A DNA stretch of 54,046 bases, the filler included, from Basidiobolus ranarum (lineage: Eukaryota): the NCBI GenBank assembly GCA_040143965.1. It is 4 parts of 4 records of this genome, joined end to end, with 100 filler letters (N's around TTAATTAATTAA, not from the genome) between each part and the next. Parts side by side here need not be neighbours in the genome. Positions count along the whole stretch, not along the records: positions 40,633 to 54,046 come from JASJQH010007360.1; 3 more parts are not named here. One strand, 5' to 3'. Below are positions 13,452-54,046 of the stretch, in pieces. Each line of letters opens with the position of its first letter. The first letter of the stretch is position 1. Below the pieces are notes generated by a model. That model was not told the DNA's origin and did no database searches. It worked only from the letters and a program-made list of their open reading frames with translations. Made by a program: the position numbers and the translations under genes.

Positions 13452-13551
13452 NNNNNNNNNNNNNNNNNNNNNNNNNNNNNNNNNNNNNNNNNNNNTTAAT
13501 TAATTAANNNNNNNNNNNNNNNNNNNNNNNNNNNNNNNNNNNNNNNNNNNN
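13452..13551. other. Artificial contig linker (100 nt of N containing TTAATTAATTAA)
   Basis: Six-frame stop spacer embedded in Ns; the same at all three gaps. Confidence 0.97.
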
Positions 13552-23993: not shown

Positions 23994-24066
23994 CGACCGA
24001 GGTGGGGGTCGAACCCACGACTTTCTCCTCCGGAGGGAGACACTCTTTCCACTGAGCTACACGGCC
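23994..24066 (-). tRNA. tRNA-Arg(CCG)
   Basis: GGCCGTGTAGCTCAGTGGAAAGAG...TCTCC-CTCCGGA-GGAGA...GTGGGTTCGACCCCCAC-CTCGGTCG folds into a cloverleaf with anticodon CCG; one U:U mismatch in the acceptor stem. Confidence 0.93.
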
Positions 24067-26992: not shown

Positions 26993-27092
26993 NNNNNNNN
27001 NNNNNNNNNNNNNNNNNNNNNNNNNNNNNNNNNNNNTTAATTAATTAANNNNNNNNNNNNNNNNNNNNNNNNNNNNNNNNNNNNNNNNNNNN
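26993..27092. other. Artificial contig linker
   Basis: N run containing TTAATTAATTAA. Confidence 0.97.
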
Positions 27093-40532: not shown

Positions 40533-40632
40533 NNNNNNNNNNNNNNNNNNNNNNNNNNNNNNNNNNNNNNNNNNNNTTAATTAATTAANNNNNNNNNNNN
40601 NNNNNNNNNNNNNNNNNNNNNNNNNNNNNNNN
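40533..40632. other. Artificial contig linker
   Basis: N run containing TTAATTAATTAA. Confidence 0.97.
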
Positions 40633-40726
40633 CTCCTCGCGCCCCCCCCAGGGGGGGCCGGAATTCATTAGCAATGAAAGAGATTTATAAAGAGAGCACA
40701 ATAACAAACCATCATTACAAACTAAG

Positions 40727-41599
40727 ATGTTTAAACTCCCTCGAAAAGTAATTGACTTTCTGCCCAAAAGTTTACCAACTAGGAAAGTTCCTTCCCACAG
40801 TCGACGATTTTTCTACACCATTGATGAGTTTCCTTCTAATGCTGCACTAGTGCCAGGGGTATTCACCACTTTTACCTTATCTAAAGTGACTCCGGTTAAC
40901 TCTACTAGTTCTATATTTCGTTTTGCCCTACCACCAACACATTGCTTAGGGTTAAACGTTTCTTCCTGTATCGTTGCCAAACTTCCAGACCAATTGAGTG
41001 GGGGGACTTTTATTGCTCGACCTTATACACCCATTTCAGACGAGAAGACCTTGGGATATTTTGAGTTACTTATCAAACGATATCCAAATGGTCCACTCTC
41101 CGAGTATTTTCATGGACTTTTACCAGGAGAAATGGTAGAATTTCAAGGACCGTTTCCGAAATTCAGTTACAAACCCAATGAATTTTCCAAACTTGGAATG
41201 ATAGCTGGTGGTACTGGCATCACACCGATGTATCAACTACTGAGAAAGATATTCCAAAATTCTGAAGATAAAACTCAAGTTAGTTTGATATTCGCCAACA
41301 AAAGAGAAGAGGATATTCTATTACGTGAAGAAATATTGTTCATGTGTCAAGAGAAGAGTTCACAATTTAAAGTTCATTTCGCTATTAGTGAAAATTCTCT
41401 GGGGGAAAAGACGAGGATAGATAAAAGGACATTGGAGGAGTACATGCCTTCTCCTGCACTGGGTGATGCTAGAATATTTATATGTGGTCCACCAGAGATG
41501 GTGGCTTATATTGCTGGTGAAGAAACCAAGATATCAAAGGAAGTGGGTGGTTTATTGAAAAGTTTAGGATACAGTGGTGATTCAGTGTACCGACTGTAA
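40727..41599 (+). CDS. NADH-cytochrome b5 reductase (MCR1/CBR-like)
   Basis: RPYTP, LLIKRYPNGPLS, MIAGGTGITPMYQ, LIFAN, ICGPP; basic presequence-like N-terminus. Confidence 0.92.
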   Translation: MFKLPRKVIDFLPKSLPTRKVPSHSRRFFYTIDEFPSNAALVPGVFTTFTLSKVTPVNSTSSIFRFALPPTHCLGLNVSSCIVAKLPDQLSGGTFIARPYTPISDEKTLGYFELLIKRYPNGPLSEYFHGLLPGEMVEFQGPFPKFSYKPNEFSKLGMIAGGTGITPMYQLLRKIFQNSEDKTQVSLIFANKREEDILLREEILFMCQEKSSQFKVHFAISENSLGEKTRIDKRTLEEYMPSPALGDARIFICGPPEMVAYIAGEETKISKEVGGLLKSLGYSGDSVYRL

Positions 41600-41623
41600 G
41601 CTTCATTGATCTCTCTCTGGTGA

Positions 41624-42093
41624 CTAAAATTGGACAAACATACTCTTTCGAGGTTTTCCATCGACATTCTTGGAACGGTGACCTTTTCCTTCTGTATCCT
41701 CGACTAGAATGATGTCGCCAGTGTTGAATCTCCTAGTCTCCATATCTGTGGTAGTAATATCTACCGAGCCATCCACCATGATAATAAATTGCTTACTAAG
41801 AAAAGCTGGTTAGTCATAAAAGATGTGTATACATTCCAAGGGTACAAACCATGGAGCATTATGCCAGTCCAAGTCGTAGGTTCCTAGAGAGCACAGGTCA
41901 TTACAAAGCCATCAAAAAGAAGGAAAACATTTCTCAACTGACCTTCTGTCTCACGAAACACAACGCCCTTCACGTCGTATTTCTTGGAGAGGTTTCCTAG
42001 GGGATTGGTGATATCCAAAGGTATATCCATATGCAAGAATTTTGACCCTCCATCAGAAGTAGTTACTATTCTAGTGACTTTGAATTCACTCAT
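41624..42093 (-). CDS. Small cupin-domain protein (3 exons)
   Basis: Introns 41942-41884 and 41849-41796 give ...FRETEGTYDLDWHNAPCKQFIIMVDGSVDI...GDIILVEDTEGKGHRSKN...MFVQF*. Confidence 0.8.
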
Positions 42094-42370
42094 GATAATC
42101 TAAAATGTAGCTTCAGTTGCTCCGCCAAACCATATTTTATACAGAGTTCTTGTGCATGTGATTGAGTAACCGGATGTCATCGGTAAAGGATAAATGATGA
42201 CTATTCTGAATCCGGATATTCCATTCGGTAAGCAATAATACCTTACTAAGCACATTAATTTGAATAATTCAAAGCCCATTACTAGATTGAATAGACGGAC
42301 ACACATAGTTACTTTACAGTTCAAAGCCCAGTGCTTCAGTGTGAGATAAATAGTGTTTCTTGACACGACT

Positions 42371-42947
42371 TTATTGGGAAGTATCCTCCACGTAAATTTG
42401 AGATAGACCAATTTTCATGTCCTCTGGAATCTGTTTAATAGGTCTTCTATCTGGCTGACTTACGAATACGTGAGTAAAGCCACCAATTACACTGGCGATG
42501 TCCTTATCTTTTTCAAAAATCCCAACTTGATACTTAACACTGGAGTTACCAATCTTGGTAATTGCCAAACCAGCTTCAATAACCACCGGGAAAGATACCG
42601 GAGCATGAAAAGTCGCAAAGGAAGAGATTACCAAACCAATAGGCCCGGTTGAACTGGAGGGTACCAGCTTACACTGCTGAATGAGATAGGTATTGACCAC
42701 GGTATCAATGTAGTGATAGAATATAGAGTTATTTATGTGGCCATATTGGTCGTTATCTGACCATCTAAAAGCATTCTATAGTTTAGTTTCCAACCATTAC
42801 CAAGTCCAAGTTAAAATAAAAGACTTGCCTTGTTTGTATTGGTAAAATGAACTTATAGAATTCTCTTTTCCTAATTGCTGGAATATTAGGAATATCTTTA
42901 CCTTTCATATGGTGGGTCAATTGAGTTAATCTCCTTCCTGCTGACAT
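42371..42947 (-). CDS. Hotdog-fold acyl-CoA thioesterase (4HBT/YbgC-like)
   Basis: IQTR-WSDNDQYGHINNSIYYHYIDT, KIGNSSVKYQVGIF, GFTHVFV; one intron at ~42766-42828. Confidence 0.87.
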
Positions 42948-43195
42948 TATGAAACGACGAAGAGAGCAGAAACCAAGTGCAACACAAGGTGAAGTGAGCT
43001 GAACTGTGACGTATTTAAAGCAATTTACATGAGGAATAAATTATCCTAAAGTGAAGCTTTATTATTAGCCACCTTGATAGTTATGACTAAAATATATACA
43101 TAAAATTATGGATATCTAAGAGCATGCAGGAAGTTCCCAAGAAAGAAGTTGATATCATAAACGCAGCTCACAATACTAATTTGAACACATCCATA

Positions 43196-44548
43196 TCAAT
43201 CCGATATTCTACCTAAATCGGTGGCATCGACTGGGTTGTAACGAGGATACCAATCGTCAGCATTCAACTTTTCAGCAAAGTCGATAAACTTACATTCACT
43301 CCCAGAGATATACCTTCTAGTCGGTTTGAGTGTCATAGCTGCAACAGTCTCAGAAAAACCACTTCGTGTGATAACCAAAGCGTCCATTTGTTGGAGAATA
43401 AACCAATCAGAATAGGTGCGAACGTTATCTTGAAAAAGCTTCCCAGCTGAATCACGATCCAAATGAGTGATATTTCCTTGATTGAAATACAGGTCGTATT
43501 GAAGTTTTTGAAATTCTTGGTGTAGTAATTGAATGGCAGATTGTGAATCAGTAGCAACAAAGAATATCGGTTTAAGAGGAGTAGAGTGTTCTTGAACATA
43601 TTTTTCATACAAGGATACTGCTTCCGCGACGAAACATCTTACTGCCACTTCAATATTCACTCGTTTAGGATCATTCCACACACCCTCACCTCCGGTACGC
43701 ATGTGAAGTCCGATTTTGTACACCTCTCGAGCATCCCATTGCTGTGTCACATTATTTATATACGGTAGAAGTTTGTTTGAAGGTGTGGTTAACAGAATAC
43801 GTGCGGCAATGGTGTAGAGATAACTAGCAGGTAATTGATGAAGTTGATATTGCTTTCCAGCCTCGGAGCCCCAGGTATTATTCTTTGTCAATCTAACCCA
43901 AAATGCTTGATTAGAGTGAACATTGATTTTTTCAAAACGTTTCCACTGCTCCAAGAAATTCATGGAATAGGAGTCTTCAATCACTGCTGACGAATCAGTA
44001 TCACCGTAGTTGAGAACTGAAGTCTTTCCCTTGTCCATGGATATTCTAGTACTAATCCAATCAATCCCATTGGAGTTTGGAACGATAAATTCTTGTAGTA
44101 AAAGAGGCTTAGTCCATTCAATTTTGAACTGAGAGTCAGTTAGTAAAGCAAGATAGAAAGTGGACAGAACTCCTTGGATTCGATCACCCAAACCACCACA
44201 AAGATCATCATCTTTACATACAAAGGATATTGTCCGAGGTACACCACAAGAAGTGACGCCTTCCAATTCCATAATATGTTTATATCTGCTTTGAACTGCG
44301 TTTACAAATTCATCTAGTTTCCCACTTTTATCGTCCTCCACGATATCCCCAGTCAGTCCAGCAAAAGAGAGATATGGAAATTCATAGCCATGAAGACGTA
44401 AACAATCAATATACGTAGATCTAACTTTTACAAGGAATTCTTCAAAACGACCTTGGTGTATGCCAAGAAGTAGAACTATAAATACTATTATAGAAACGGT
44501 AGAGAGGATATGATTCTTTAAGAGTTGAAGGATTTTTCTAATAATCAT
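43196..44548 (-). CDS. Type II membrane GT-B glycosyltransferase, fucosyltransferase-like
   Basis: N-terminal TM anchor; GGLGDR, GLHMRTG, FVATDS, DWFIL...SGFS motifs typical of GDP-fucose-using enzymes. Confidence 0.72.
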   Translation of the reverse strand: MIIRKILQLLKNHILSTVSIIVFIVLLLGIHQGRFEEFLVKVRSTYIDCLRLHGYEFPYLSFAGLTGDIVEDDKSGKLDEFVNAVQSRYKHIMELEGVTSCGVPRTISFVCKDDDLCGGLGDRIQGVLSTFYLALLTDSQFKIEWTKPLLLQEFIVPNSNGIDWISTRISMDKGKTSVLNYGDTDSSAVIEDSYSMNFLEQWKRFEKINVHSNQAFWVRLTKNNTWGSEAGKQYQLHQLPASYLYTIAARILLTTPSNKLLPYINNVTQQWDAREVYKIGLHMRTGGEGVWNDPKRVNIEVAVRCFVAEAVSLYEKYVQEHSTPLKPIFFVATDSQSAIQLLHQEFQKLQYDLYFNQGNITHLDRDSAGKLFQDNVRTYSDWFILQQMDALVITRSGFSETVAAMTLKPTRRYISGSECKFIDFAEKLNADDWYPRYNPVDATDLGRISD

Positions 44549-44940
44549 GGTGCAAGTGAAGTGAGAAATAGGAGATGGTATAAATATGTTCTTGCAAGCG
44601 ACAGATCGACATCTGAACCTTCCTTCCTCTTATTTATATCTATATATGCAAGTGAGTTGCATATTTGGACATGATTTGACCCTGACAAGTAGCTTTCCAG
44701 ATATGTGCAGATTGTAATAGCTACTGATTGCTTTCAATTTACGGTGTACTAGTTTACAACGATGCTTCAACAACGATATTAAATAGGTTTGACACTCTAT
44801 CAGTAGATATGTAATAATGTGGAACAATAAAGTTGAAGTAGATATACACATTTTATTTACAACAATGTACACCTTGAGAATATCTAAGAAAAAGATTTGG
44901 TTAGAATCAGAAATATTTGGATTTTAACCTTTGCCATAAT

Positions 44941-45030
44941 AATAGTTTCAGTAAATGGCATGGTAACTGCCGGTATAATCACTATGTATCATTAGACCGT
45001 CGTGAAAATTTGTATCATCATATAACTATT
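44941..45030 (-). ncRNA. snR73: Box C/D snoRNA, snR73 homolog (25S Cm2959)
   Basis: C box ATGATGA; guide TCACGACGGTCTA followed by D' ATGA, complementary to LSU UAGACCGUCGUGA; C' GTGATTA; D box CTGA; AATAGTT/AACTATT stem. Confidence 0.9.
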
Positions 45031-45207
45031 GTTGAATCATGGCAAAACGCTAACGGTGCAGAAATCAACTTACTTTGACAGCAGTGTCATTAGGAGCATC
45101 ATTGGAACACCATGGAGCAAACGAGATTGAATAAACACATAGTAAGCCTGTAAATAAGTAGTAGGTTAGATAGTTGCTAGTGAATAGTGTGGATAGTAGT
45201 CGAGTGT

Positions 45208-45283
45208 AGTTTATCAGTGACGAAAGGTATCCTTCATTAAGATCGGACATATGCTTGTCTTTGTCTAACTCATCCTTTAAACT
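45208..45283 (-). ncRNA. snR74: Box C/D snoRNA, snR74 homolog (18S Am28)
   Basis: Variant C box AGGATGA; guide AGACAAGCATATG followed by D' CCGA, complementary to 18S CAUAUGCUUGUCU; D box CTGA; AGTTTA/TAAACT stem plus outer TAGTCGAG/CTCGACTA stem. Confidence 0.9.
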
Positions 45284-45441
45284 TCTCGACTATAAGATAT
45301 GGGAGATATGCTTACCAAATGATGAACTGGAGTATTCCTGAGATAAGTGAGTATGTTGTGTGGCCAAATGAGATAAACTACAAAATTCTGGATAATTATT
45401 AATATGGATTATGGAGATGGAAATAATTGGAATGCGACAAA

Positions 45442-45530
45442 ATCAATCAGGTTTTGGCATGAATGGTAGTAAAGATGGTGTCAACAGTGAATAACTCATT
45501 CTGACTCGTCATCAAAGTCATCATCTTGAT
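45442..45530 (-). ncRNA. snR75: Box C/D snoRNA, snR75 homolog (25S Gm2288)
   Basis: C box ATGATGA; guide GATGACGAG followed by D' CAGA, complementary to LSU CUCGUCAUC; CCATTCATGC element; D box CTGA; ATCAA/TTGAT stem. Confidence 0.87.
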
Positions 45531-45693
45531 TTTTATACACATTGAAATGAAAATTTCACTCACCATATCAAAACCATTACATTCATTATGAACAAAGACG
45601 GCATTAATTGGTGGCTACGGTGAAAACGGTAATAAGCCTAAGAATCATTGATATTAGTATAAAGAATTAAAATATACGGTGATTTTGGCTTTT

Positions 45694-45775
45694 TCAGAAA
45701 GAGTACAGTGCAAAATTATCCATCATGAATTTTCGGCCGGTAATTCCAGCTTTTTTTGCGTGTATATCATCATTT
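45694..45775 (-). ncRNA. snR77: Box C/D snoRNA, snR77 homolog, copy B
   Basis: Paralog of 46173-46259 with the same guide and D' CCGA. The homologous D box reads CTGT; another CTGA lies 11 nt downstream (45697-45694). Confidence 0.75.
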
Positions 45776-45917
45776 AAACCATCCAAACAATCTAAAAGAA
45801 ACTCACCATTCGGTAAAAAAGTCGCGAGCACATGCTCTTTATATACAAGTCGAGCCTAACGATGTTACTAAAGTATTGTTAGAAGGTATTCATGATGAAT
45901 AATGTTGTTGTTTAACG

Positions 45918-46019
45918 TGTATGTGATCGGTCATCGGTTTTCTAGGCCGGAAAATGCATATCGTCAGTGTCAGCGTCTAAACTGATCAGTGCCCAGTGCG
46001 TTTCGTCATCTCACATACA
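45918..46019 (-). ncRNA. snR76: Box C/D snoRNA, snR76 homolog (25S Cm2197)
   Basis: Variant C box GAGATGA; guide GCACTGGGCA followed by D' CTGA, complementary to LSU UGCCCAGUGC; variant D box CCGA; 9-bp terminal stem TGTATGTGA/TCACATACA. Confidence 0.85.
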
Positions 46020-46172
46020 TCCTTAAACATGATGTTGTAAATAAAACTCACCATAGTTGCTTCGTAGTGACCGGCACTAGAGTACGATCGATGAACTTCG
46101 ATATTTGAGGTTCTAGAAGATGAAAGATGAATCGTTAGAATTGCTTTGTATTTGATTCATGATTTTTAGCTA

Positions 46173-46259
46173 TTGGGTTGTCAGTGCAAAATCTTCCGTC
46201 ATGTATTTTCGGACGGTAATTCCAGCTTTTATTGCGTGTGTATCATCATTTAAACCCAA
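46173..46259 (-). ncRNA. snR77: Box C/D snoRNA, snR77 homolog (18S Um578), copy A
   Basis: C box ATGATGA; guide AGCTGGAATTACCG followed by D' CCGA, complementary to 18S CGGUAAUUCCAGCU; D box CTGA; 7-bp terminal stem TTGGGTT/AACCCAA. Confidence 0.92.
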
Positions 46260-46408
46260 CGTAGCCATGCTCTATAGAGAAAATACATACCATATTATAG
46301 TACAATCATCGGTAGCTTTGACAATCAACATCACTGATTGGAATCTGAAAGATGAATTACTATTAGAATGGATTGCTATAGGATTGGATGAAAGGGTAAG
46401 TTTCGTGG

Positions 46409-46490
46409 TTGCCCTCAGAGAGTGCGTTATAATCACTAAATGATTCAGAAACTCTAGTTTGAAATATAAAATAATTTCATCCCGGGGTAA
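46409..46490 (-). ncRNA. snR78: Box C/D snoRNA, snR78 homolog (25S Um2421 in yeast numbering)
   Basis: Variant C box GGGATGA; guide TCAAACTAGAGT followed by D' CTGA, complementary to LSU ACUCUAGUUUGA; C' GTGATTA; D box CTGA at 46418-46415. Confidence 0.85.
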
Positions 46491-46569
46491 TTGCAACTGT
46501 TGTTCAAAGTAAAGAATACTGTACCTGGTAGTGATGGAAGAGGTATGGGTCTAAGTTGTACTTGTGGCT

Positions 46570-46577
46570 TTTTTATA
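46570..46577 (-). promoter_or_regulatory. Candidate TATA box of the snoRNA host gene
   Basis: TATAAAAA on the minus strand, ~50 nt upstream of the first donor site. Confidence 0.5.
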
Positions 46578-48719
46578 GTGATGAATTTTTTTTTCATCAG
46601 CTCGTCTGATTTAAACAAGGGTATTAGTCTAGCATACATGATTGGCTCTATATATGCATCATTAAGAATAAATTGGATTTTCAAAGAATTGTCGCGTATT
46701 TTTCCCGAAAGAAGTTAATATTCAAAAATCAGATATTAACCCTAAGTAGCGTGTATTTGAAAGTTTATATCTTATTGGATTAGGTTAGTGATTTTGATAT
46801 GGCAAAAGATCGCAGTTTAAATATAAAACATTAAATAGAATTTATCCCTGATACTGTATTCAATAACTAGTTTCTTCGTTGAAGGTTGTAGATTAGATTT
46901 GTCGCCACAGAGGGAAAATATAGAAAGTATCACCATTGTTAGTATATCAAACAATGTCTTATTTACATGATGAGGCCATTTCTTAAATAGAATCACTGGA
47001 CGTACTTTTCAAGCTGTTTCCCATAATTTAGTATCATTCCAGATATCACTTGCTCATTCGCTTTAACTGGATTTATGTAATTTGATTGCGACATCGGGAT
47101 AAACTTTGTCGCTATAGTTTAAATTACCTGGATGCTGCATACTACCGCTATCTTCTACCAACAATTCCTACCAAGTGCGTGGTAATGTTGTGCTACTTGA
47201 TAAGTGTTTGTGGAACATCAGGTTTATTAAGTAGTCAGACATTCTAGAACCTGCTAATGAACATTTATTGTGCAGTTGTACTAAATTCATCCCTTGACAC
47301 TAGCGAAATGCTTTGGTTGAGGCTTAGGTGGCAGAATTAGGTACTCTATGCCATAAGTTGTGAGTATTCAGGACATCGCTGGCAGTTCAGAAGTATCTGC
47401 AAATATAGACGAACACACACATAAACACAGTGTGTTCTTATGCATTTGGAGATGGCTAACCTCTCTAGCATGCAATAACGGTAACATGGGTGGTTACATT
47501 TCATCAACCATTTAATTAAATCAAGAATCATTTATGCACCATTTGACGAAGCAATGTTCGGAGGTTTAGTAATAACCAGAACCTGAATCGGTGTATCTTG
47601 GCTTTCATAACCAAACCACTGTCTTATTCTCAGGATCGCTGTTTTTTATCAGTACAAACTAAATTAGGTGCGATTGATTATATATTATCCGTCATTCACC
47701 TACTCACCCTCTCCCTATCCCCATTAGGGATACTGCTTTGATTATATTAGACTTGCATAAGGCGAGTTGATAGGCACATGTTGGAGATATATATATCTTG
47801 CCTCCAGTCTAACAATCTTTATTTCGTTTCATCCCAATAGCTATCACTTCATTGTCAACCCTAAGTAAAACGAACACCATGTCGACCATCAGTATGAATA
47901 TACATTTACGAGAGGCTCAGTTTATGTCTTCTGAAGTTAGTAAACACCTCCAACCAACATTAAATATCAAGCGTAAACTCTCAGGGGGTAACGATTTTTA
48001 TACATAACCTCAGAACCTTCTTTGAGTATAATTTACCTATAGCCTTTCAATAGACCTTCAACCACTGGACCATTTCAAGCATCATCTTACTTTCTTTAGC
48101 GAAACGCAAGGCTATCGAGATGCACAAGTAGGTATATTTACTCTGTACATAGCTCTTTCGTATACTAAAGGTACTCTCCAAAACGTAGCATTATGTCACT
48201 TCTAGTGGACGTCGGTGCGCAGTTGGGCATATATTTGACAGTGTTTTGTCGACTCACGAAAAAAGACCTTGAATGTGGAGAGCATATTTATAGCTTGTGT
48301 AATATAGAGTAGATATATCAGTTTGTCTGGATAAACTTAGAGGTCTTTGTACAGTTAAAACCTATATACCCTTGTACCCTTATACCCTATCCTCTCATAT
48401 ACCTACATAGATTTAATTCTATTCCATATGACTACTTTTTGAAGGATTTTGAACTTAATTTATTTTCATAGTTTCTATTCTATTTTCGTAATTCTCTCCG
48501 TATGCTAGAGATTACTAGCTAGAATCAGCTTTAGAACTACTACATATAGGATTTGATATGAACTTTGTGTGATAGAGTAAATTTGCATATCAATAATTTA
48601 TTAAACTACAGATCCAATGAGATTTGAATACTGCTCAGTTATTGTGAGAATAAATTAGGATAAATAAATTAGGGAAATTATTGAGTGAACCCAGTTTTTG
48701 TTCGAATAAATTAAGGAAA

Positions 48720-51700
48720 TTATTGAATAAGGACCATTTTCCAATCTTGTACTAAAGATAAGCCAAGTTTGGAAATAGAGAGTAGTTGAACATCCTCATC
48801 ATATTCGTATTGATCAGATTTCAATTCTGCTCCATCGACTTCAATAGTTCTAATCTTACTAACACCCAAAACCTCGATTTCTTCAATCTTCACGTTGTCG
48901 GATGGATGATATTCGTACCTACCACTAGTACTTAAAATACCATTCTCGAGTTGGAATTCGATATGAGTCGACTTGGTCATATCTAAAGGTTTATCATCAT
49001 CGAGGTAAAGTTCTCCTCGTGCCGATTGCTTGTCATCTAAAGATATGATCAATTTGAATGGATTTTGGCGACATTCATCTGTGGTCAATGAGGGTCTTTG
49101 AAGTGGAAGAATGGCACCTCCTCGTAGATGAATAGGCATGAAGTCAAGTGGGGCATCTAATGTCAAATACTCTCCAATCTCTTTGTTATTGGATACCAAC
49201 TTCTTGGTGTAATAATCGTACCATTTTCCACGAGGGAAATAACCCTTGACATCACAAGCTCCCTTCTCTAATACAGGGGTGACCAAGATGGCGTTTCCAA
49301 GAAGGAATTGCGTCTCATTTCTTAGAGTCTCAGTATCTTCAGGATATTCCATGCACAAGCTGCGAATAACAGTATCCCCTTTAGTACTAGAACGCCAGAA
49401 TAGTGTGTACCAATATGGCAACATGGCGTAGCGGATTTGAAGATATTTTTTGGTAGTATCTGCAAGTGAGGAGTATATATAAGGCTCCTGGCTGGGATGG
49501 TTTACAGCATTATGGTTACGTGAAAAAGGATAGAAGCATCCAAGTTGATGCCAACGGATTAAGAGTTCTTCCTCAGAAGGATCGTTAAATCCACCAATAT
49601 CTGGACCTACCATAGGCATACCAAACAACTGGAAGTTGAACATTCCTGGAATAGAGTACCTAAGATGATCCCAATTTGACCCTAATTTTTAAGTTAGTAA
49701 AGAGTTGGAAATTCACTTAATGTAAAATGTCTGTTTACAATTGTCACCAAGCCAGTGATAAGCAAAAGCTCCACTACCAACAAATGTACTTCTAGTGAGA
49801 AGGAACGGTTTGCGTTCAGGGTAGTACGCTCTATAGGCCTTATAACTGGCCAAAGACTCCATATGGCCGAAAAGATTGTGAGCATCATACTCGGTCACTC
49901 CACCATAATGTTTAGCATCCATAGGAGAGGTGCGTGTATGGAGGGGGGCATGAGTGCCACCATTATTGATCTTATAAGGAGGGTTTAAAATTCCAATGGG
50001 TTCATCTTCGGATAGTTCAGGTTGGGCGTCTTTGTCAATTTCCACATGCTCTGCTTTCAGGATTTCCTCTAAACCATCTTTCTCATCGATGATGTTGGTT
50101 TGCTCGGAAGTTCCTGCATCCTGGACCATGGTTTCAACTGTCTGTCCTTCAGTTGGAATCATTGGGTCATCGTCTTCTGGCTGATCAGTGCAATCTCCAT
50201 CGGCAAAATTAGCAATTTCATTCATATCTGTAGATAGACAAGTTAGGCGACATATTGAAACACAAATGGCAATTCAACTCATGTACCTAGCCAAACACCA
50301 TCCAAAGGTAAGGTATCAAACCATTCGTGGAATAACTCAGTCCAGTATTTGTCGGCCTCGGGGTGAAACCAATCTACATCGACATTAGTAATACTTTCTT
50401 ACTACCACATCAAGTGAGCCTGAGACTTACCTGGGAATGTAGTCTTGCCAGGCCACACTCGTCCAACAAAGATTTCTCCATCGCTACGCTTGATGAATAC
50501 ATCTCGTTCCATTCCAACTTCATATGGTTTGTTCCCCTCCTCCACTTTGATTCCGGGATCCACGATCATAATCATCTTTTGATTTCGTGAATGAAGATCT
50601 TTGAGGAAGTCGTTAAGCTTGGCGGCAGGATAGCGAACGGGATCAAAAGTGAATGACTTGTACTTGTTCATGTAACTACAGCGAAAGAGCGTGTTTAATG
50701 GAGATTCCAAAGTAATGGGTATCAATTCGAAAATGATTACTCGATGTCTATCCACATGCATTCTAGAGGAATGTCGGCTTTCCTATAATCGTCGACTACC
50801 TTCTTCACAATGTCGAGTGTTTCGTATCCCCAACGACATTGATGGAAGCCCAAGGACCTACAATGGAAATTAATATTTATTGTGGACATGTTGATGCTTC
50901 AGAATTACCAGTAGGGCAGCATAGTGGGAAGGCCGATCAATTCTTGGTACTGTTGAGTTACTTGTTGCGGAGTATCACCAACAAATACGTACAAGTCCAA
51001 AACACCACCAATGACCCGATAGGTAAGTTGACTATTATCTTGTGATAGTTTAATGTCCATTCCATTACTATTGAATAAAAGCTGCACATATGTAAGAGAG
51101 GGACATTGAAGATGAGCTATTTAGTCTACTTACAACACCGTGTGCTTTGCCATCACGAATCTCCATATAGAATGGGTGACTTCCGTATACATTCTCATCT
51201 TCAGGGCAAGCCGCATCTAAGTGTATGATTTAGTGCCACGATCGAGAGCTCGTCACAACAAAAAAAAATTACCTCTATTCCATATAGTGGTTAAACTTCC
51301 CTCTTCTCTTCTGAATCGAGCGTTGGTCTCACCCAAGCCGTAGATATTGGCGTTCTTCGGAAGGTGAGTAGATAGTTCCAAATATTGATCCTTAAAGACT
51401 AGTCCGAGATCCCTAGTATCGAACAATTTTTCACCAGTCTTGCGTTCAACAACAAATCCAAAAGGAGATTCGGTATAGTGGAAGTTGTATTCGCATGACT
51501 CTAATCCTTTAACATCTGGGGAGGGAGTGTTGTTCAATGGCACAATATGATTTGGGATTTGCCAGCGTTTCTCGGGAATATCGGTGATCTTGATATGTAT
51601 ACGCGTAGGGGTTTCGTAGGTGACTTGAAACTTCAACTCTTCAATATCTTCTCCATATTGTGGTAAGGTGGGATGCAAAAGCGATAGTTTAGCTTCTAAT

Positions 51701-51877
51701 AGAGTGTCGGATTTCGTTTGGATGCCACCGAGGGAGTACTCTCCGATCTCGCCAGTTGCAAAATAGCTAGATTTGTAAGCGTTAGAGTGGTTGTTCCAAT
51801 AAACACCATGGAACTAGTCATACATACTTGGAGATTGAAGACAAAGCGTGTCTTAGGGACTTGGTCAACGATGTCAT
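48720..51877 (-). CDS. GH31 alpha-glucosidase (multi-exon)
   Basis: [33 protein letters not shown] (nucleophile), [19 protein letters not shown] (acid/base), [15 protein letters not shown]. Probable start [10 protein letters not shown] at 51877. Confidence 0.93.
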
Positions 51878-52399
51878 TGGTATATTGAGGTGAAGATGTG
51901 AGATGGAATCGTACACCTTTATATGGATTTGTTAAACCAATCAAGTTTAACAACTAGTAGTAACTAGATCAATATTCTTAGGGTTTCTTTCGAAGACGAG
52001 TAATAAATGCCTGCTTATAGTACAATAGATGACTTACAGTCTGCTTATGGAGTATGTTAACTTGGCCCATTCTACTAATTCAGGGGTGATCATGACGTGA
52101 AGCTCCTCCCGCTGTTATTGTGATTACTGGCTTAGATGGGTTGGATCGCAAATGAGAGCTCGATCTGCGACATAATCAGAAATTCTTAGTGGTTTGATTT
52201 TGCGATAAGCACTGCTTTGCTCATCTAATAGATAGCGCGTCTGTGATTCATCATTAGTCCGCAACAACAGCTGGGCATGGTGGGTAGGTGTGGGGATTGT
52301 GAAGGTTAGGGAGGGCTTGGGAGAGTTACTCAGAGAGCCCAGAATTGATGAACACAATTGGCTGCCTCAATCTAAGATGAGATCATAATCCGTTTGTGC

Positions 52400-53557
52400 A
52401 TGAATACTAGATTTCATCATTCAGCAAATATGAAACAATCCTTACGTAAATTTAACCCACAATAGTGGAGACTATTACAGGCCAACTAAGATGGTATCAG
52501 TACAACAAACCACTCTATTCCTAGAGAGTTTGTACCAGCGGGAGAAAGGAAAAGCAGTTTTATTGGAAACCCGTATATCCTACTCTCAAAGTGAAGTTGC
52601 GCGCAAAGAGGAGGTTGTTGGAATCGTTTTATCGCATCCATATGGTCCATTAGGTATGGAAAATCCTTGAGTAATTTGTAAAAGTGAATTTCCCCTTCAT
52701 CCTGCTTATGTACCTTGTCATTATGAAGGCGGAAACTTTGATAACAATGTGATCCGAAAACTACAGACATATTTCACTCAGCAAGGCTTCGTCGTAGTTT
52801 CATTCAACTCTAGGTATCTCTCTTTTCTTTTAACAATCTGTATTATTCCCATTTTTATCAATATTTGGTGTGGTATATTGTCAGTAACACCTTCAATTAT
52901 ATAAGAGGATCAGGAAATTCGAGTGGAAAAACTTCTTGGACTGGAATACCTGAGACAGAAGATTACAAAACGATTGTTAGTTATTTGGCAAAAGAGCAGG
53001 AACTGGAGACTTACACAGGGAATACTTTCGACTTTCCCAAGCCAAGTAAAATAGTGATTTGTGTACGTATGAAGCAGCAATACATCTTAATCGATGACCC
53101 CTAGTATATATCCAGGCTTACCGTTATTTTATAGGGTTACTCATATGGCTCGGTAGTGGCTTCTTCATTCAGACCAATAGATATCCCGAGTGTAAAGTTG
53201 TACTATGCCTTTGTTAGCTATCCTTTGAGTGTAGTCTGGTTACTCACCCTATGGAAGTGCAACTGGTTCTTCAAAAGAATCAATGAGATCATGGGTATTT
53301 CAGAAATGGATCAGACCTCAGAACAGAGTAGTCTGAATGAAAGCACCAATCCGCGACCAACACTTTTTATTTATGGTGACAGAGACCAGTTCACCTCGCT
53401 TTCATCGTATCAAAAATGGTTCAACCAATTCCCAACTGATCTTACTAATATCAAGTTGAGTCTAGTTGAAGGTTGTGACCATTTCTGGTTTGGAAAGGAA
53501 AAAAGAATTGTGAAATGTATAGAAGATTGGTTGAACGATGCTGTGTTAAGCGGTTGA
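52400..53557 (+). CDS. Alpha/beta-hydrolase (multi-exon)
   Basis: HPYGPL-GGN, FNSR-GSGNS, GYSYG nucleophile elbow, GDRDQF, CDHFW; spliced start inferred at 52400. Confidence 0.82.
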
Positions 53558-54046
53558 AGAATCTACACATATGTTTACTCATATTCATATGACTGCTCTT
53601 CCCGAGCGAGCGTCCCTAGCATTGGAAGCTTAAATGACAACTTGAAACAATAAACAAAACGTACAACCAATTGGAAAGGGAGAATTAACTTTATTAGTAA
53701 ACAGCATACTTATACTGCATATTCTTCAATTTTTCGGATTAAAGAGTAACTCTGCTAGGGCGCAGAACGCAGTCTAAAATGACCCAAATGGTTTCCGGAG
53801 TGAGGTCAAGCAGGCATTCTTGAGCTAATAGCCAAGATTGTGATAGATTAGCTCAATGCCCACTTTAGAAAGGTCCGACTAGCAAATCGATGGTGGCTGA
53901 ATACAGGTAAAAATAGAACGAGGGCATTTTTCACACCCACTCATCCCACTCATCCCACGCGTAATGACAATGAACTATTTTTACATTTTCATTTTTGATA
54001 TGATTTAGATACAACTTCACGTTAGAGTTCGTTTTCATTCGGAGTT

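What the first reader, a model, noticed from the sequence alone, without database searches (positions are those of the whole stretch)
44884..46577. Hidden seven-intron non-coding gene carrying the snR78-snR73 snoRNA cluster, one snoRNA per intron
Seen: this apparently intergenic 1.7 kb resolves into seven minus-strand GT..branch..AG introns separated by ~50-75 nt exons. Each intron holds one C/D'/D-box unit, most with a terminal stem, and a 9-14 nt rRNA-complementary guide. The fifth nucleotide upstream of each D' box falls on the yeast sites Um2421, Um578, Cm2197, Gm2288, Am28 and Cm2959. Known: S. cerevisiae has the polycistronic snR78-77-76-75-74-73-72 cluster in this order, and intronic versions occur in other fungi. 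Inference: finding the order intact and fully intronic in an apparently early-diverging fungus suggests the cluster is very old and that the spliced host is ancestral. I saw no snR72 guide.
Basis: partly seen in the sequence, partly recalled or inferred. Interest (0 to 1): 0.82.

Follow-up and report, generated by a model that had tools for sequence, protein, structure and literature searches.

The report
Intron-borne snoRNA cluster in Basidiobolus
This stretch is a non-coding gene whose seven introns each carry one small RNA that guides methylation of ribosomal RNA, an arrangement already known from other fungi and here found, nearly complete, in an early-branching fungus.

Summary
On the minus strand of 44884-46524, Rfam finds seven box C/D snoRNAs in the order snR78, snR77, snR76, snR77 (second copy), snR75, snR74 (SNORD27) and snR73 (Z161/228 clan). 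Three of the 7 reach Rfam's gathering score; the other four have E-values of 9e-7 to 8e-3.

Each snoRNA lies in its own 168-190 nt GT..YTAAY..YAG intron, and the exons between are 54-74 nt. This signal pattern occurs at 7 of 7 snoRNAs against 0.6% of random positions.

The D' guides pair with stand-in eukaryotic rRNAs at 18S A28 and U579/580. In the large subunit they pair at a C, G, U and C spaced 91, 133 and 534-547 nt apart.

The spliced exons show no codon-usage signal. The source is Basidiobolus ranarum by a 100% protein match.

Three points limit the finding:
- Expression and splicing could not be tested, because no RNA-seq and no genome were offered.
- The order is not strictly intact, since snR77 is duplicated.
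- The arrangement is already published for Ascomycota, Basidiomycota and Rhizopus oryzae (PMC3596301).

It is a new member of a known kind, of moderate interest.

The parts
46571..46654 (-). Candidate promoter region: TATA-like motifs TATATAG (46654-46648) and TATAAAA (46577-46571). The transcript start is not mapped.
   Evidence: Motif scan. This is inference only; no RNA data were available.
46525..46570 (-). Exon 1. Its 5' end is unknown; its 3' end is at the weak donor CAG|GTACAG.
   Evidence: A bona fide GTACAT donor in the neighbouring GH31 gene shows that such donors are used in this genome.
46345..46524 (-). Intron 1, 180 nt: donor GTACAG, branch CTAAT, acceptor CAG.
46413..46487 (-). 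snR78-family C/D snoRNA: C box GGAUGA, D' CUGA, D CUGA. The D' guide points at the LSU U that matches yeast U2421.
   Evidence: Rfam RF01176, 50.6 bits against a gathering score of 48. Duplexes of 9-10 bp with 1 G-U in 3 of 3 stand-in LSUs.
46291..46344 (-). Exon 2, 54 nt.
46113..46290 (-). Intron 2, 178 nt: donor GTATGT, branch CTAAC, acceptor TAG.
46179..46253 (-). snR77 copy a, the positional counterpart of yeast snR77. It has D' CCGA, a D box CUGA directly after UUUUGCA, and an 8-bp terminal stem. The guide points at 18S U579/580.
   Evidence: Rfam RF01181, 36.4 bits, below the gathering score of 50, E 0.0083. A 15-bp duplex with 1 G-U in 5 of 5 stand-in 18S sequences. Stem.
46052..46112 (-). 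Exon 3, 61 nt.
45868..46051 (-). Intron 3, 184 nt: donor GTGAGT, branch CTAAC, acceptor TAG.
45923..46014 (-). snR76-family C/D snoRNA: C box AUGACGA, D' CUGA, variant D box CCGA, 9-bp terminal stem. The guide points at the LSU C that matches yeast C2197.
   Evidence: Rfam RF01209, 39.4 bits, below the gathering score of 55, E 2.2e-6. A 10-bp duplex with no G-U in 3 of 3 stand-in LSUs. Stem.
45807..45867 (-). Exon 4, 61 nt.
45638..45806 (-). Intron 4, 169 nt: donor GTGAGT, branch CTAAT, acceptor TAG.
45692..45777 (-). snR77 copy b, the extra copy, lying between snR76 and snR75. It has the same 18S U579/580 guide.
   Evidence: Rfam RF01181, 51.1 bits against a gathering score of 50. A 14-bp duplex with no G-U in 5 of 5 stand-in 18S sequences. 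About 91% identical to copy a, by my count, and only within the snoRNA body.
45564..45637 (-). Exon 5, 74 nt.
45378..45563 (-). Intron 5, 186 nt: donor GTGAGT, branch-like TTAAT, acceptor TAG.
45445..45529 (-). snR75-family C/D snoRNA: D' CAGA and an 8-bp terminal stem. The guide points at the LSU G that matches yeast G2288. A second conserved 10-nt element pairs 19-28 nt downstream of the target.
   Evidence: Rfam RF01185, 55.9 bits against a gathering score of 40. A 9-bp duplex in 2 of 3 stand-in LSUs. The extra 10-bp pairing was seen in the 2 of 2 LSUs examined. The extra-pairing role is known for yeast snR75 (PMC3116282).
45316..45377 (-). Exon 6, 62 nt.
45148..45315 (-). Intron 6, 168 nt: donor GTAAGC, branch CTAAC, acceptor CAG.
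45210..45281 (-). snR74/SNORD27-family C/D snoRNA: D' CCGA and a 6-bp terminal stem. The guide points at 18S A28.
   Evidence: Rfam RF00086, 47.8 bits, below the gathering score of 52, E 9e-7. A 13-bp duplex with no G-U giving A28 in L107, L108 and L152, 9 bp in L172, and none in L054. RF00086 covers yeast snR74 (PMC3511168 table).
45074..45147 (-). Exon 7, 74 nt.
44884..45073 (-). Intron 7, 190 nt: donor GTAAGT, branch CTAAC, acceptor TAG.
44943..45028 (-). snR73/U35/Z161-228 clan C/D snoRNA: non-consensus D' AUGA and a 7-bp terminal stem. The guide points at the LSU C that matches yeast C2959.
   Evidence: Rfam RF00328 (clan CL00056), 32.2 bits, below the gathering score of 45, E 0.0016. A 15-16-bp duplex with 1 G-U in 3 of 3 stand-in LSUs. 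The clan holds yeast snR73 (PMC3511168 table).
44830..44883 (-). Last exon. Its 3' end is not mapped. AATAAA lies at 44857-44852.
   Evidence: This is inference only.

Best explanation
The region is an RNA polymerase II gene on the minus strand with eight short exons and seven introns. Its spliced product is non-coding, and its useful products are the seven box C/D snoRNAs, one per intron.

Inferred mechanism:
1. The primary transcript is spliced.
2. While the intron is still in the spliceosome, the snoRNP core proteins assemble on the C/D kink-turn. The snoRNA sits a fixed distance upstream of the branch point.
3. The lariat is debranched, and exonucleases trim it back to the protein-protected ends, which are closed by a terminal stem.
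4. The mature snoRNPs then guide 2'-O-methylation of pre-rRNA.

The predicted targets are 18S A28 (snR74) and 18S U~578 (two redundant snR77 copies). In the large subunit they are the counterparts of yeast C2197 (snR76), G2288 (snR75, helped by an extra 10-nt pairing element), U2421 (snR78) and C2959 (snR73).

The locus is the Basidiobolus counterpart of the fungal snR72-78 'cluster I'. It has no snR72 function and carries an extra snR77 unit.

Shown here: the snoRNA family identities, box and stem anatomy, splice signals and their regular spacing, guide complementarity to conserved rRNA, and the lack of a coding signal.

Inferred, not shown: transcription, splicing, snoRNA accumulation and the methylations themselves.
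For: - Family identity: Rfam finds seven same-strand C/D families in yeast cluster order. Three of the 7 are above the gathering score, and four are below it with E-values of 9e-7 to 8e-3.
- Splice signals: canonical donor, branch and acceptor flank every snoRNA. This holds for 7 of 7 against 0.59% of random positions.
- Spacing: the donor lies 33-52 nt before the C box. The end of the D box lies 40-52 nt before the branch A in 7 of 7. That is close to the ~50 nt upstream of the branch point reported as the preferred position for human intronic C/D snoRNAs (PMC5519232, passages).
- Intron size: the host introns are 168-190 nt. The eight introns that exactly reproduce the annotated GH31 protein next door are 51-65 nt, so the extra length is the snoRNA payload.
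- Guides: the D' guides give A28 and U579/580 in 18S. They give C, G, U and C in the LSU at spacings of 91, 133 and 534-547 nt, as for the yeast sites.
- Site assignments in print: L2288 for snR75 and L2197 for snR76 (PMC3116282). 25S-2421 for snR78 (PMC5824354). Am28 for snR74, Um578 for snR77 and snR73 in clan CL00056 (PMC3511168).
- Terminal stems: 6-9 bp in 6 of 7.
- No coding signal: the longest spliced ATG ORF is 87 aa, within the 159-267 bp range reported for the non-coding N. crassa hosts (PMC2780460). Its codon-usage log-likelihood is 0.002 bits per codon. That is below the minimum (0.032) of 51 real coding chunks and inside the intergenic range. None of 7 unspliced ORFs has a Pfam match.
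Against:
- The organism's own rRNA was not available, because no genome is held. Pairing was tested only on unnamed stand-in eukaryotic rDNAs.
- Four of the 7 snoRNAs are below Rfam's gathering score.
- The intron 1 donor, GTACAG, is weak, and exon 1 and the transcript start are undefined.
- snR76 has a variant D box, CCGA. snR78 has only a 3-bp terminal stem and 9-10 bp of pairing with the stand-ins.
- The spliced exons carry a stop-free frame of 120 codons. This is longer than expected by chance: p 0.007 by shuffling, 0.03 by permuting exon order, and 0.0006 against random intergenic pieces.
- MFE z-scores for the seven snoRNAs are unremarkable, from -1.1 to +0.8, though this is usual for C/D snoRNAs.
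Confidence: 0.86

Rival explanations
1. The snoRNAs are real but are released from an unspliced polycistronic precursor by endonuclease cuts between the units. This is how RNase III (Rnt1) works on the S. cerevisiae snR72-78 cluster and how plant clusters are processed. Under this reading the splice-like signals play no part.
For: [quoted passage not shown] No junction reads could be obtained here.
Against: Donor, branch and acceptor are present around 7 of 7 snoRNAs, against 0.59% of random positions. The distance from D box to branch point is nearly constant at 40-52 nt. All non-Saccharomyces lineages examined in PMC3596301, including a zygomycete, were scored as intronic. N. crassa host splicing was confirmed there by RT-PCR (PMC2780460).
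Confidence: 0.04
2. The host is not purely non-coding. The spliced transcript also encodes a small protein of 87 aa from the ATG in exon 4, within a stop-free frame of 120 codons that runs from exon 3 to exon 8.
For: The stop-free frame is longer than expected: p 0.007 (shuffle), 0.03 (exon-order permutation) and 0.0006 (random intergenic pieces).
Against: - Codon usage of the frame is indistinguishable from intergenic DNA. It scores 0.002 bits per codon, against a mean of 0.211 and a minimum of 0.032 in 51 real coding chunks.
- By my reading of the spliced sequence printed, several ATGs in other frames precede the ORF's ATG.
- ORFs of 159-267 bp are reported in the accepted non-coding N. crassa hosts (PMC2780460).
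- A homology search with the spliced product could not be run, so conservation of the peptide remains untested.
Confidence: 0.05
3. The array is partly decayed and one or more units are inactive relics. The candidates are snR77 copy a (shortened 3' part, below gathering score), snR76 (D box CCGA) and snR78 (3-bp stem).
For: Four of the 7 are below Rfam's gathering score. There are variant boxes. snR77 is redundant, so one copy is free to decay.
Against: - Both snR77 copies keep an intact C box, D box, 6-8-bp terminal stem and a 14-15-bp guide.
- snR76 keeps a 9-bp stem and a perfect 10-bp guide.
- Divergent D' and C' boxes are shown to be active in yeast (PMC3116282).
- Low bit scores are expected for a lineage far from the Rfam seed species.
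Confidence: 0.1

Closest known systems
S. cerevisiae snR72-snR78 polycistronic cluster ('cluster I')
   Same: The same snoRNA families are on one strand in the same order (78-77-76-75-74-73). They have the same predicted methylation sites, and snR75 carries the same extra base-pairing element.
   Different: The yeast cluster has no introns and arises from an unspliced transcript (PMC3596301). It ends with snR72, which is absent here, and it has a single snR77.
Intronic cluster I of filamentous Ascomycota (for example Neurospora crassa), Basidiomycota and Rhizopus oryzae
   Same: There is one snoRNA per intron of a host with only short ORFs and canonical splice signals. The exons are poorly conserved and the host resembles the mammalian UHG genes (PMC3596301; PMC2780460).
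   Different: - Euascomycetes carry a fused snR78/72 double-guide snoRNA (N. crassa CD5). Here the D-side guide of snR78 finds no rRNA match of 9 bp or more.
- R. oryzae is reported to have lost the snR76 intron. Here snR76 is present.
- A second snR77 unit appears in none of the passages I read.
Mammalian non-coding snoRNA host genes (UHG/SNHG1, GAS5)
   Same: They are multi-intron hosts with little coding potential and one C/D snoRNA per intron, placed about 50 nt upstream of the branch point (PMC5519232; here 40-52 nt). SNORD27, the snR74 counterpart, is recalled to lie in SNHG1; no call checked this.
   Different: The snoRNA sets and their order differ. The mammalian introns are much longer, and their hosts have 5'TOP promoters, which were not assessed here. 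The likeness is in how they work; common descent of the hosts is not shown.

Membership tests
Box C/D snoRNA (each of the seven units) | C box (RUGAUGA-like) near the 5' end and D box (CUGA) near the 3' end | tested here: met
   C boxes: AUGAUGA in 4, GGAUGA in 2, AUGACGA in 1. D boxes: CUGA in 6 of 7 and CCGA in snR76.
Box C/D snoRNA (each of the seven units) | Terminal helix bringing the C and D boxes together | tested here: met
   Stems of 6-9 bp in 6 of 7 and 3 bp in snR78. Random flank pairs reach 6 bp or more in about 15% of trials. MFE folds close the ends.
Box C/D snoRNA (each of the seven units) | Guide of 9 nt or more complementary to rRNA, ending next to D or D', with the target at the fifth paired position | tested here: met
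   9-16 bp for all seven D' guides on stand-in rRNAs (L054, L107, L108, L152, L172). The targets are A28, U579/580, C, G, U and C. The organism's own rRNA was not available.
Box C/D snoRNA (each of the seven units) | Stable ~70-100 nt RNA bound by fibrillarin, Nop56, Nop58 and Snu13; methylation present at the target | not testable with these tools
Rfam families snR78, snR77, snR76, snR75, SNORD27, snoZ161_228 | Score at or above the curated gathering threshold | tested here: inconclusive
   Met by 3 of 7: snR78 50.6 (threshold 48), snR77-b 51.1 (50), snR75 55.9 (40). Not met by 4 of 7: SNORD27 47.8 (52), snR76 39.4 (55), snR77-a 36.4 (50), Z161/228 32.2 (45). Those four have E-values of 9e-7 to 8e-3 over a 2.9-kb search.
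Fungal snoRNA cluster I (snR78-77-76-75-74-73-72) | The same families on one strand, within about 1.5-2 kb, in this order | tested here: met
   The order is 78-77-76-77-75-74-73 over 1.55 kb. It is collinear with yeast once the second snR77 is removed.
Fungal snoRNA cluster I (snR78-77-76-75-74-73-72) | snR72 function (LSU A876 guide) at the 3' end or as the D guide of snR78 | tested here: not met
   There is no Rfam match downstream of snR73. No D-guide duplex of 9 bp or more was found for snR78. Loss of the snR72 intron from the cluster is reported for most fungi (PMC3596301), so this does not exclude membership.
Non-coding, UHG-like snoRNA host gene | Each snoRNA inside a spliceosomal intron with canonical signals | tested here: met
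   7 of 7. The intron 1 donor, GTACAG, is weak.
Non-coding, UHG-like snoRNA host gene | Spliced product without coding capacity | tested here: met
   The longest ATG ORF is 87 aa. Its codon-usage score lies inside the intergenic range and below all 51 coding chunks. An unexplained 120-codon stop-free frame remains. A homology search with the spliced ORF was not possible.
Non-coding, UHG-like snoRNA host gene | The transcript exists and is spliced as predicted | not testable with these tools
   no genome and no sequencing runs were offered for this window.

The most novel reading that the evidence does not exclude
Basidiobolus carries the fullest version of cluster I among the non-Dikarya cases I found in print: 78-77-76-75-74-73, all intronic. 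If this is homologous by descent, the array and its spliced non-coding host predate the split between zygomycete-grade fungi and Dikarya.

That would contradict the 2018 'fungal snoRNAome' model, in which the cluster formed at the root of Ascomycota from dispersed genes (PMC5824354). It would also make the snR76 gap in Rhizopus a secondary loss.

The extra snR77 unit, and the shared flank segments between introns 1 and 2 and between introns 3 and 4, would then show that such arrays grow by duplicating whole intron-plus-snoRNA modules.
Probability: 0.6. Interest if true: 0.45.

Novelty: new member of a known kind. Interest (0 to 1): 0.35.

Why it matters
The locus gives a clean annotation of seven rRNA-methylation guides and their host gene in a region with no database-matched reading frame, in a poorly studied fungal phylum.

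It also bears on a disagreement in print. One paper finds the snR72-78 cluster, intronic, in Basidiomycota and a zygomycete (PMC3596301). A later survey places its origin at the root of Ascomycota (PMC5824354). A nearly complete, collinear, fully intronic copy in Basidiobolomycota favours the older origin. It also favours the view that the intron-less yeast cluster is the derived state.

The very regular 40-52 nt distance from snoRNA to branch point suggests that position-dependent, splicing-coupled snoRNP assembly, known from mammals, also works in this lineage.

None of this is surprising to a specialist. It is a useful data point, not a new kind of system.

Tried and rejected
The organism's own rRNA, junction reads and genome-wide snoRNA context were therefore out of reach.
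- The genome search for a eukaryotic LSU in the records behind L054 and L107 failed twice with a machine error. LSU stand-ins were taken from a metagenome scan instead.
- The genome-contig scan returned 107 stretches. I sent to Rfam only the 6 that formed similar pairs, and 2 of those 6 were eukaryotic 18S.
- The metagenome scan returned 113 stretches. I sent 4 to Rfam, and 3 of those 4 held complete rDNA units. The remaining stretches from both scans were not examined.
- A heuristic search for coding introns between neighbouring ORFs was unproductive. It was replaced by an exact protein-guided model of the GH31 gene.
The coding question was then addressed only by codon statistics and by Pfam on unspliced ORFs given by reference, 0 of 7 with a match.
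- Second (D-side) guides: none is convincing. The snR74 D guide pairs over 10 bp with 1 G-U to 18S near 1148-1157 in 4 stand-ins. Other D guides gave comparable hits, so I treat it as background.
- The conserved element in the 3' half of snR76 found no clear partner within 100 nt either side of its target in the stand-ins.
- snR72 guide: none found.
- More snoRNAs upstream, in 46600-48800: none. The only match is SCARNA7 at E 0.88.
- Mitrovich et al. 2010 (Science), recalled as the first report of intronic snoRNA clusters in Candida and of intron loss in Saccharomyces, is not held. I saw only its reference entry.
- Earlier findings of this scan: nothing on this genome or topic.
- 'Not in print' claim: the search 'Basidiobolus' + 'snoRNA' found 1 paper, judged unrelated from its title and abstract. 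The terms Basidiobolus, Zoopagomycota and Entomophthoromycotina do not occur in PMC5824354. Supplements of these papers were closed and may list more taxa.
Full report
**What is there.** I read 44600-46900 on the minus strand and scanned the window against Rfam.

At gathering thresholds the whole window gives four matches:
- a tRNA at 23994-24066;
- snR75 at 45445-45529, 55.9 bits against a threshold of 40;
- snR77 at 45692-45777, 51.1 against 50;
- snR78 at 46413-46487, 50.6 against 48.

A permissive scan of 44300-47200 listed 29 matches. Between and after the first three snoRNAs, on the same strand, it adds four more:
- SNORD27 at 45210-45281, 47.8 against 52, E 9e-7;
- snR76 at 45923-46014, 39.4 against 55, E 2.2e-6;
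- a second snR77 at 46179-46253, 36.4 against 50, E 0.0083;
- snoZ161_228 at 44943-45028, 32.2 against 45, E 0.0016.

The table in PMC3511168 (passages read) links these families to yeast. RF00086 (SNORD27) corresponds to yeast snR74, which targets Am28. RF00328 lies in clan CL00056 with yeast snR73. RF01181 (snR77) targets Um578.

The array therefore reads 78-77-76-77-75-74-73.

**Introns.** Each snoRNA lies in a GT..AG interval of 168-190 nt, and the internal exons are 54-74 nt. The donors are GTACAG, GTATGT, GTGAGT (three times), GTAAGC and GTAAGT. A YTAAY branch motif lies 11-22 nt before the acceptor.

The spacing is very regular. The donor lies 33-52 nt before the C box. The end of the D box lies 40-52 nt before the branch A.

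As a control I asked how often a donor-like motif 20-55 nt upstream occurs together with a branch-plus-acceptor motif 15-75 nt downstream. Both occur at 7 of 7 snoRNAs and at 0.59% of 40,000 random positions of the window. The donor pattern included GTACAG after the fact; without it the count is 6 of 7.

To learn what real introns look like in this genome I rebuilt the neighbouring GH31 gene. The 899-aa database protein P0121 is reproduced exactly by eight introns of 51-65 nt. Their donors include GTACAT, GTAATT and GTAAAC. The weak intron 1 donor is therefore within the genome's usage. The host introns are about three times the usual length, which the snoRNA payload explains.

**snoRNA anatomy.**
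- C boxes are AUGAUGA (four), GGAUGA (two) and AUGACGA (snR76).
- D boxes are CUGA, except CCGA in snR76.
- D' boxes are CUGA, CCGA, CAGA and AUGA.
- Terminal stems of 6-9 bp flank the boxes in 6 of 7, and snR78 has 3 bp. Random flank pairs reach 6 bp or more in about 15% of trials. MFE folds close the ends, with unremarkable z-scores of -1.1 to +0.8.

**Guides.** No genome is held for this window, so the organism's own rRNA could not be used. I fetched stand-ins by searching public collections with two 14-base stretches of the window's + strand.

Of 107 genome contigs stretches I sent 6 to Rfam, and 2 held eukaryotic 18S: L054 and L107. Of 113 metagenome stretches I sent 4, and 3 held complete rDNA units: L108, L172 and L152.

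Applying the rule of the fifth nucleotide upstream of D' gives these results:

| snoRNA | Duplex | Predicted target |
|---|---|---|
| snR74 | 13 bp, no G-U, in L107, L108, L152; 9 bp in L172; none in L054 | 18S A28 |
| snR77 a and b | 15 and 14 bp, in 5 of 5 stand-in 18S | 18S U570-582 (U579/580 in the three full units) |
| snR76 | 10 bp, in 3 of 3 | LSU C2168 in L108 |
| snR75 | 9 bp, in 2 of 3 | LSU G2259 in L108 |
| snR78 | 9-10 bp with 1 G-U, in 3 of 3 | LSU U2392 in L108 |
| snR73 | 15-16 bp with 1 G-U, in 3 of 3 | LSU C2926 in L108 |

The LSU spacings in L108 are 91, 133 and 534 nt. In L172 they are 91, 133 and 545 nt. The yeast numbers are 2197, 2288, 2421 and 2959, spaced 91, 133 and 538 nt.

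Those yeast numbers are confirmed in print. L2197 for snR76 and L2288 for snR75 come from PMC3116282. 25S-2421 for snR78 comes from PMC5824354.

A second conserved element in snR75 pairs perfectly over 10 bp, 19-28 nt downstream of its target. This matches the 'extra base-pairing' shown to boost methylation by yeast snR75 (PMC3116282, passages).

No guide for the snR72 site was found. PMC3596301 reports that most fungi have lost the snR72 intron from this cluster.

**Host gene.** Joining the predicted exons gives no long ORF. The longest ATG ORF is 87 aa, within the 159-267 bp reported for the N. crassa hosts (PMC2780460).

One frame is stop-free for 120 codons, which is more than chance predicts: p 0.007, 0.03 and 0.0006 under three controls. 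Its codon usage, however, scores 0.002 bits per codon. That is below all 51 real coding chunks of the window (minimum 0.032, mean 0.211) and inside the intergenic range.

A homology search with the spliced product could not be run. None of 7 unspliced ORFs in the region has a Pfam match.

TATA-like motifs lie at 46654-46648 and 46577-46571, and AATAAA lies at 44857-44852. The transcript ends are not mapped. No further snoRNA was found in the 2 kb upstream.

**Organism and context.** The GH31 fragment next to the locus is 100% identical to a protein that NCBI names as from Basidiobolus ranarum, and 76% identical to one from B. meristosporus. The taxonomy places the species in phylum Basidiobolomycota.

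The window is a concatenation. Paired runs of N around a 12-nt spacer lie at 13452-13551, 26993-27092 and 40533-40632. The piece holding the locus, 40633-54046, is 13,414 nt long.

**Mechanism.** The best reading is splicing-dependent production. snoRNP assembly is coupled to the spliceosome at a fixed distance from the branch point. The lariat is then debranched and trimmed by exonucleases to the stem-closed ends.

The 40-52 nt spacing is close to the ~50 nt given for human intronic C/D snoRNAs in PMC5519232. All of this is inferred from anatomy, because no RNA data were available.

**Comparison with what is known.** PMC3596301 (passages) analysed this same 'cluster I'. It states that in Euascomycetes, Basidiomycota and Rhizopus oryzae all its snoRNAs are intronic. 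It also states that the hosts lack long ORFs, that R. oryzae lost the snR76 intron, and that most fungi lost the snR72 intron.

PMC2780460 confirmed such hosts in N. crassa by RT-PCR. PMC5824354 instead places the origin of the snR77-to-73 cluster at the root of Ascomycota. Its early-branching lineages, as named in the text I read, are Microsporidia, Mucoromycotina, Chytridiomycota and Blastocladiomycota.

A search for 'Basidiobolus' plus 'snoRNA' found one paper, judged unrelated from its title and abstract. Supplements were closed and may list more taxa.

The Basidiobolus locus is thus a new member of a known kind. It is more complete than the Rhizopus version because snR76 is present. It favours the older-origin view and adds a lineage-specific second snR77 unit.

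The two snR77 copies are about 91% identical by my count from the alignment, and only within the snoRNA body. Two pairs of intron flanks are also alike, which hints at duplication of whole modules:
- Introns 1 and 2 share about 40 nt around the branch site (p 0.005).
- Introns 3 and 4 share 17 nt at the donor, where none of 200 shuffles scored as high.

With 42 pairs tested, this is only suggestive.

**Verdict.** It is a new member of a known kind, with interest 0.35.

Noticed in passing
window 13452-13551, 26993-27092, 40533-40632: Paired 44-N runs lie around a 12-nt spacer that has a stop in every frame. The window is therefore four separate pieces joined artificially, and adjacency across the spacers is not real. 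The piece with the snoRNA locus is 40633-54046 (13,414 nt).
   Followed up: partly
window 46179-46253 and 45692-45777 (-): snR77 is present twice within the array. The copies are about 91% identical, by my count from the alignment, inside the snoRNA body only. In copy a the D box follows UUUUGCA directly. Copy b has 11 more nt before its D box, as in the yeast consensus.
   Followed up: yes
window 46345-46400 vs 46113-46165; 46030-46055 vs 45785-45810 (-): Introns 1 and 2 share a ~40-nt similar 3' flank that includes the branch site (p 0.005). Introns 3 and 4 share a 17-nt donor region. Four of the 7 host exons that precede an intron end in ATG, against 0 of 8 such exons in the GH31 gene. This hints at duplication of whole exon-intron modules or at gene conversion, but with 42 pairs tested it is only suggestive.
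   Followed up: partly
window 45218-45232 (-), snR74 D-side guide: A 10-bp duplex with 1 G-U forms with a conserved 18S segment near position 1148-1157 in four stand-in 18S sequences. It would predict a G methylation. Other D guides gave comparable hits, so it is probably chance.
   Followed up: partly
window 44830-46112 (-), spliced exons 3-8: The spliced host has a stop-free frame of 120 codons (87 aa from an ATG), longer than chance predicts (p 0.0006-0.03). It has no codon-usage signal. It remains unexplained.
   Followed up: partly
window 48720-51877 (-): This is a GH31 alpha-glucosidase gene. The annotated 899-aa protein is reproduced exactly with eight introns of 51-65 nt and loosely conserved donors (GTAATT, GTACAT, GTAAAC).
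   Followed up: yes
window 46700-48720: About 2 kb between the GH31 stop codon and the host-gene promoter has no ORF of 120 codons or more and no Rfam match better than E 0.88.
   Followed up: partly
window 43196-44548 (-): A 450-aa ORF with no Pfam match lies directly downstream of the host gene.
   Followed up: no
window 23994-24066 (-): A tRNA gene (Rfam 59.2 bits) on another of the joined pieces.
   Followed up: no
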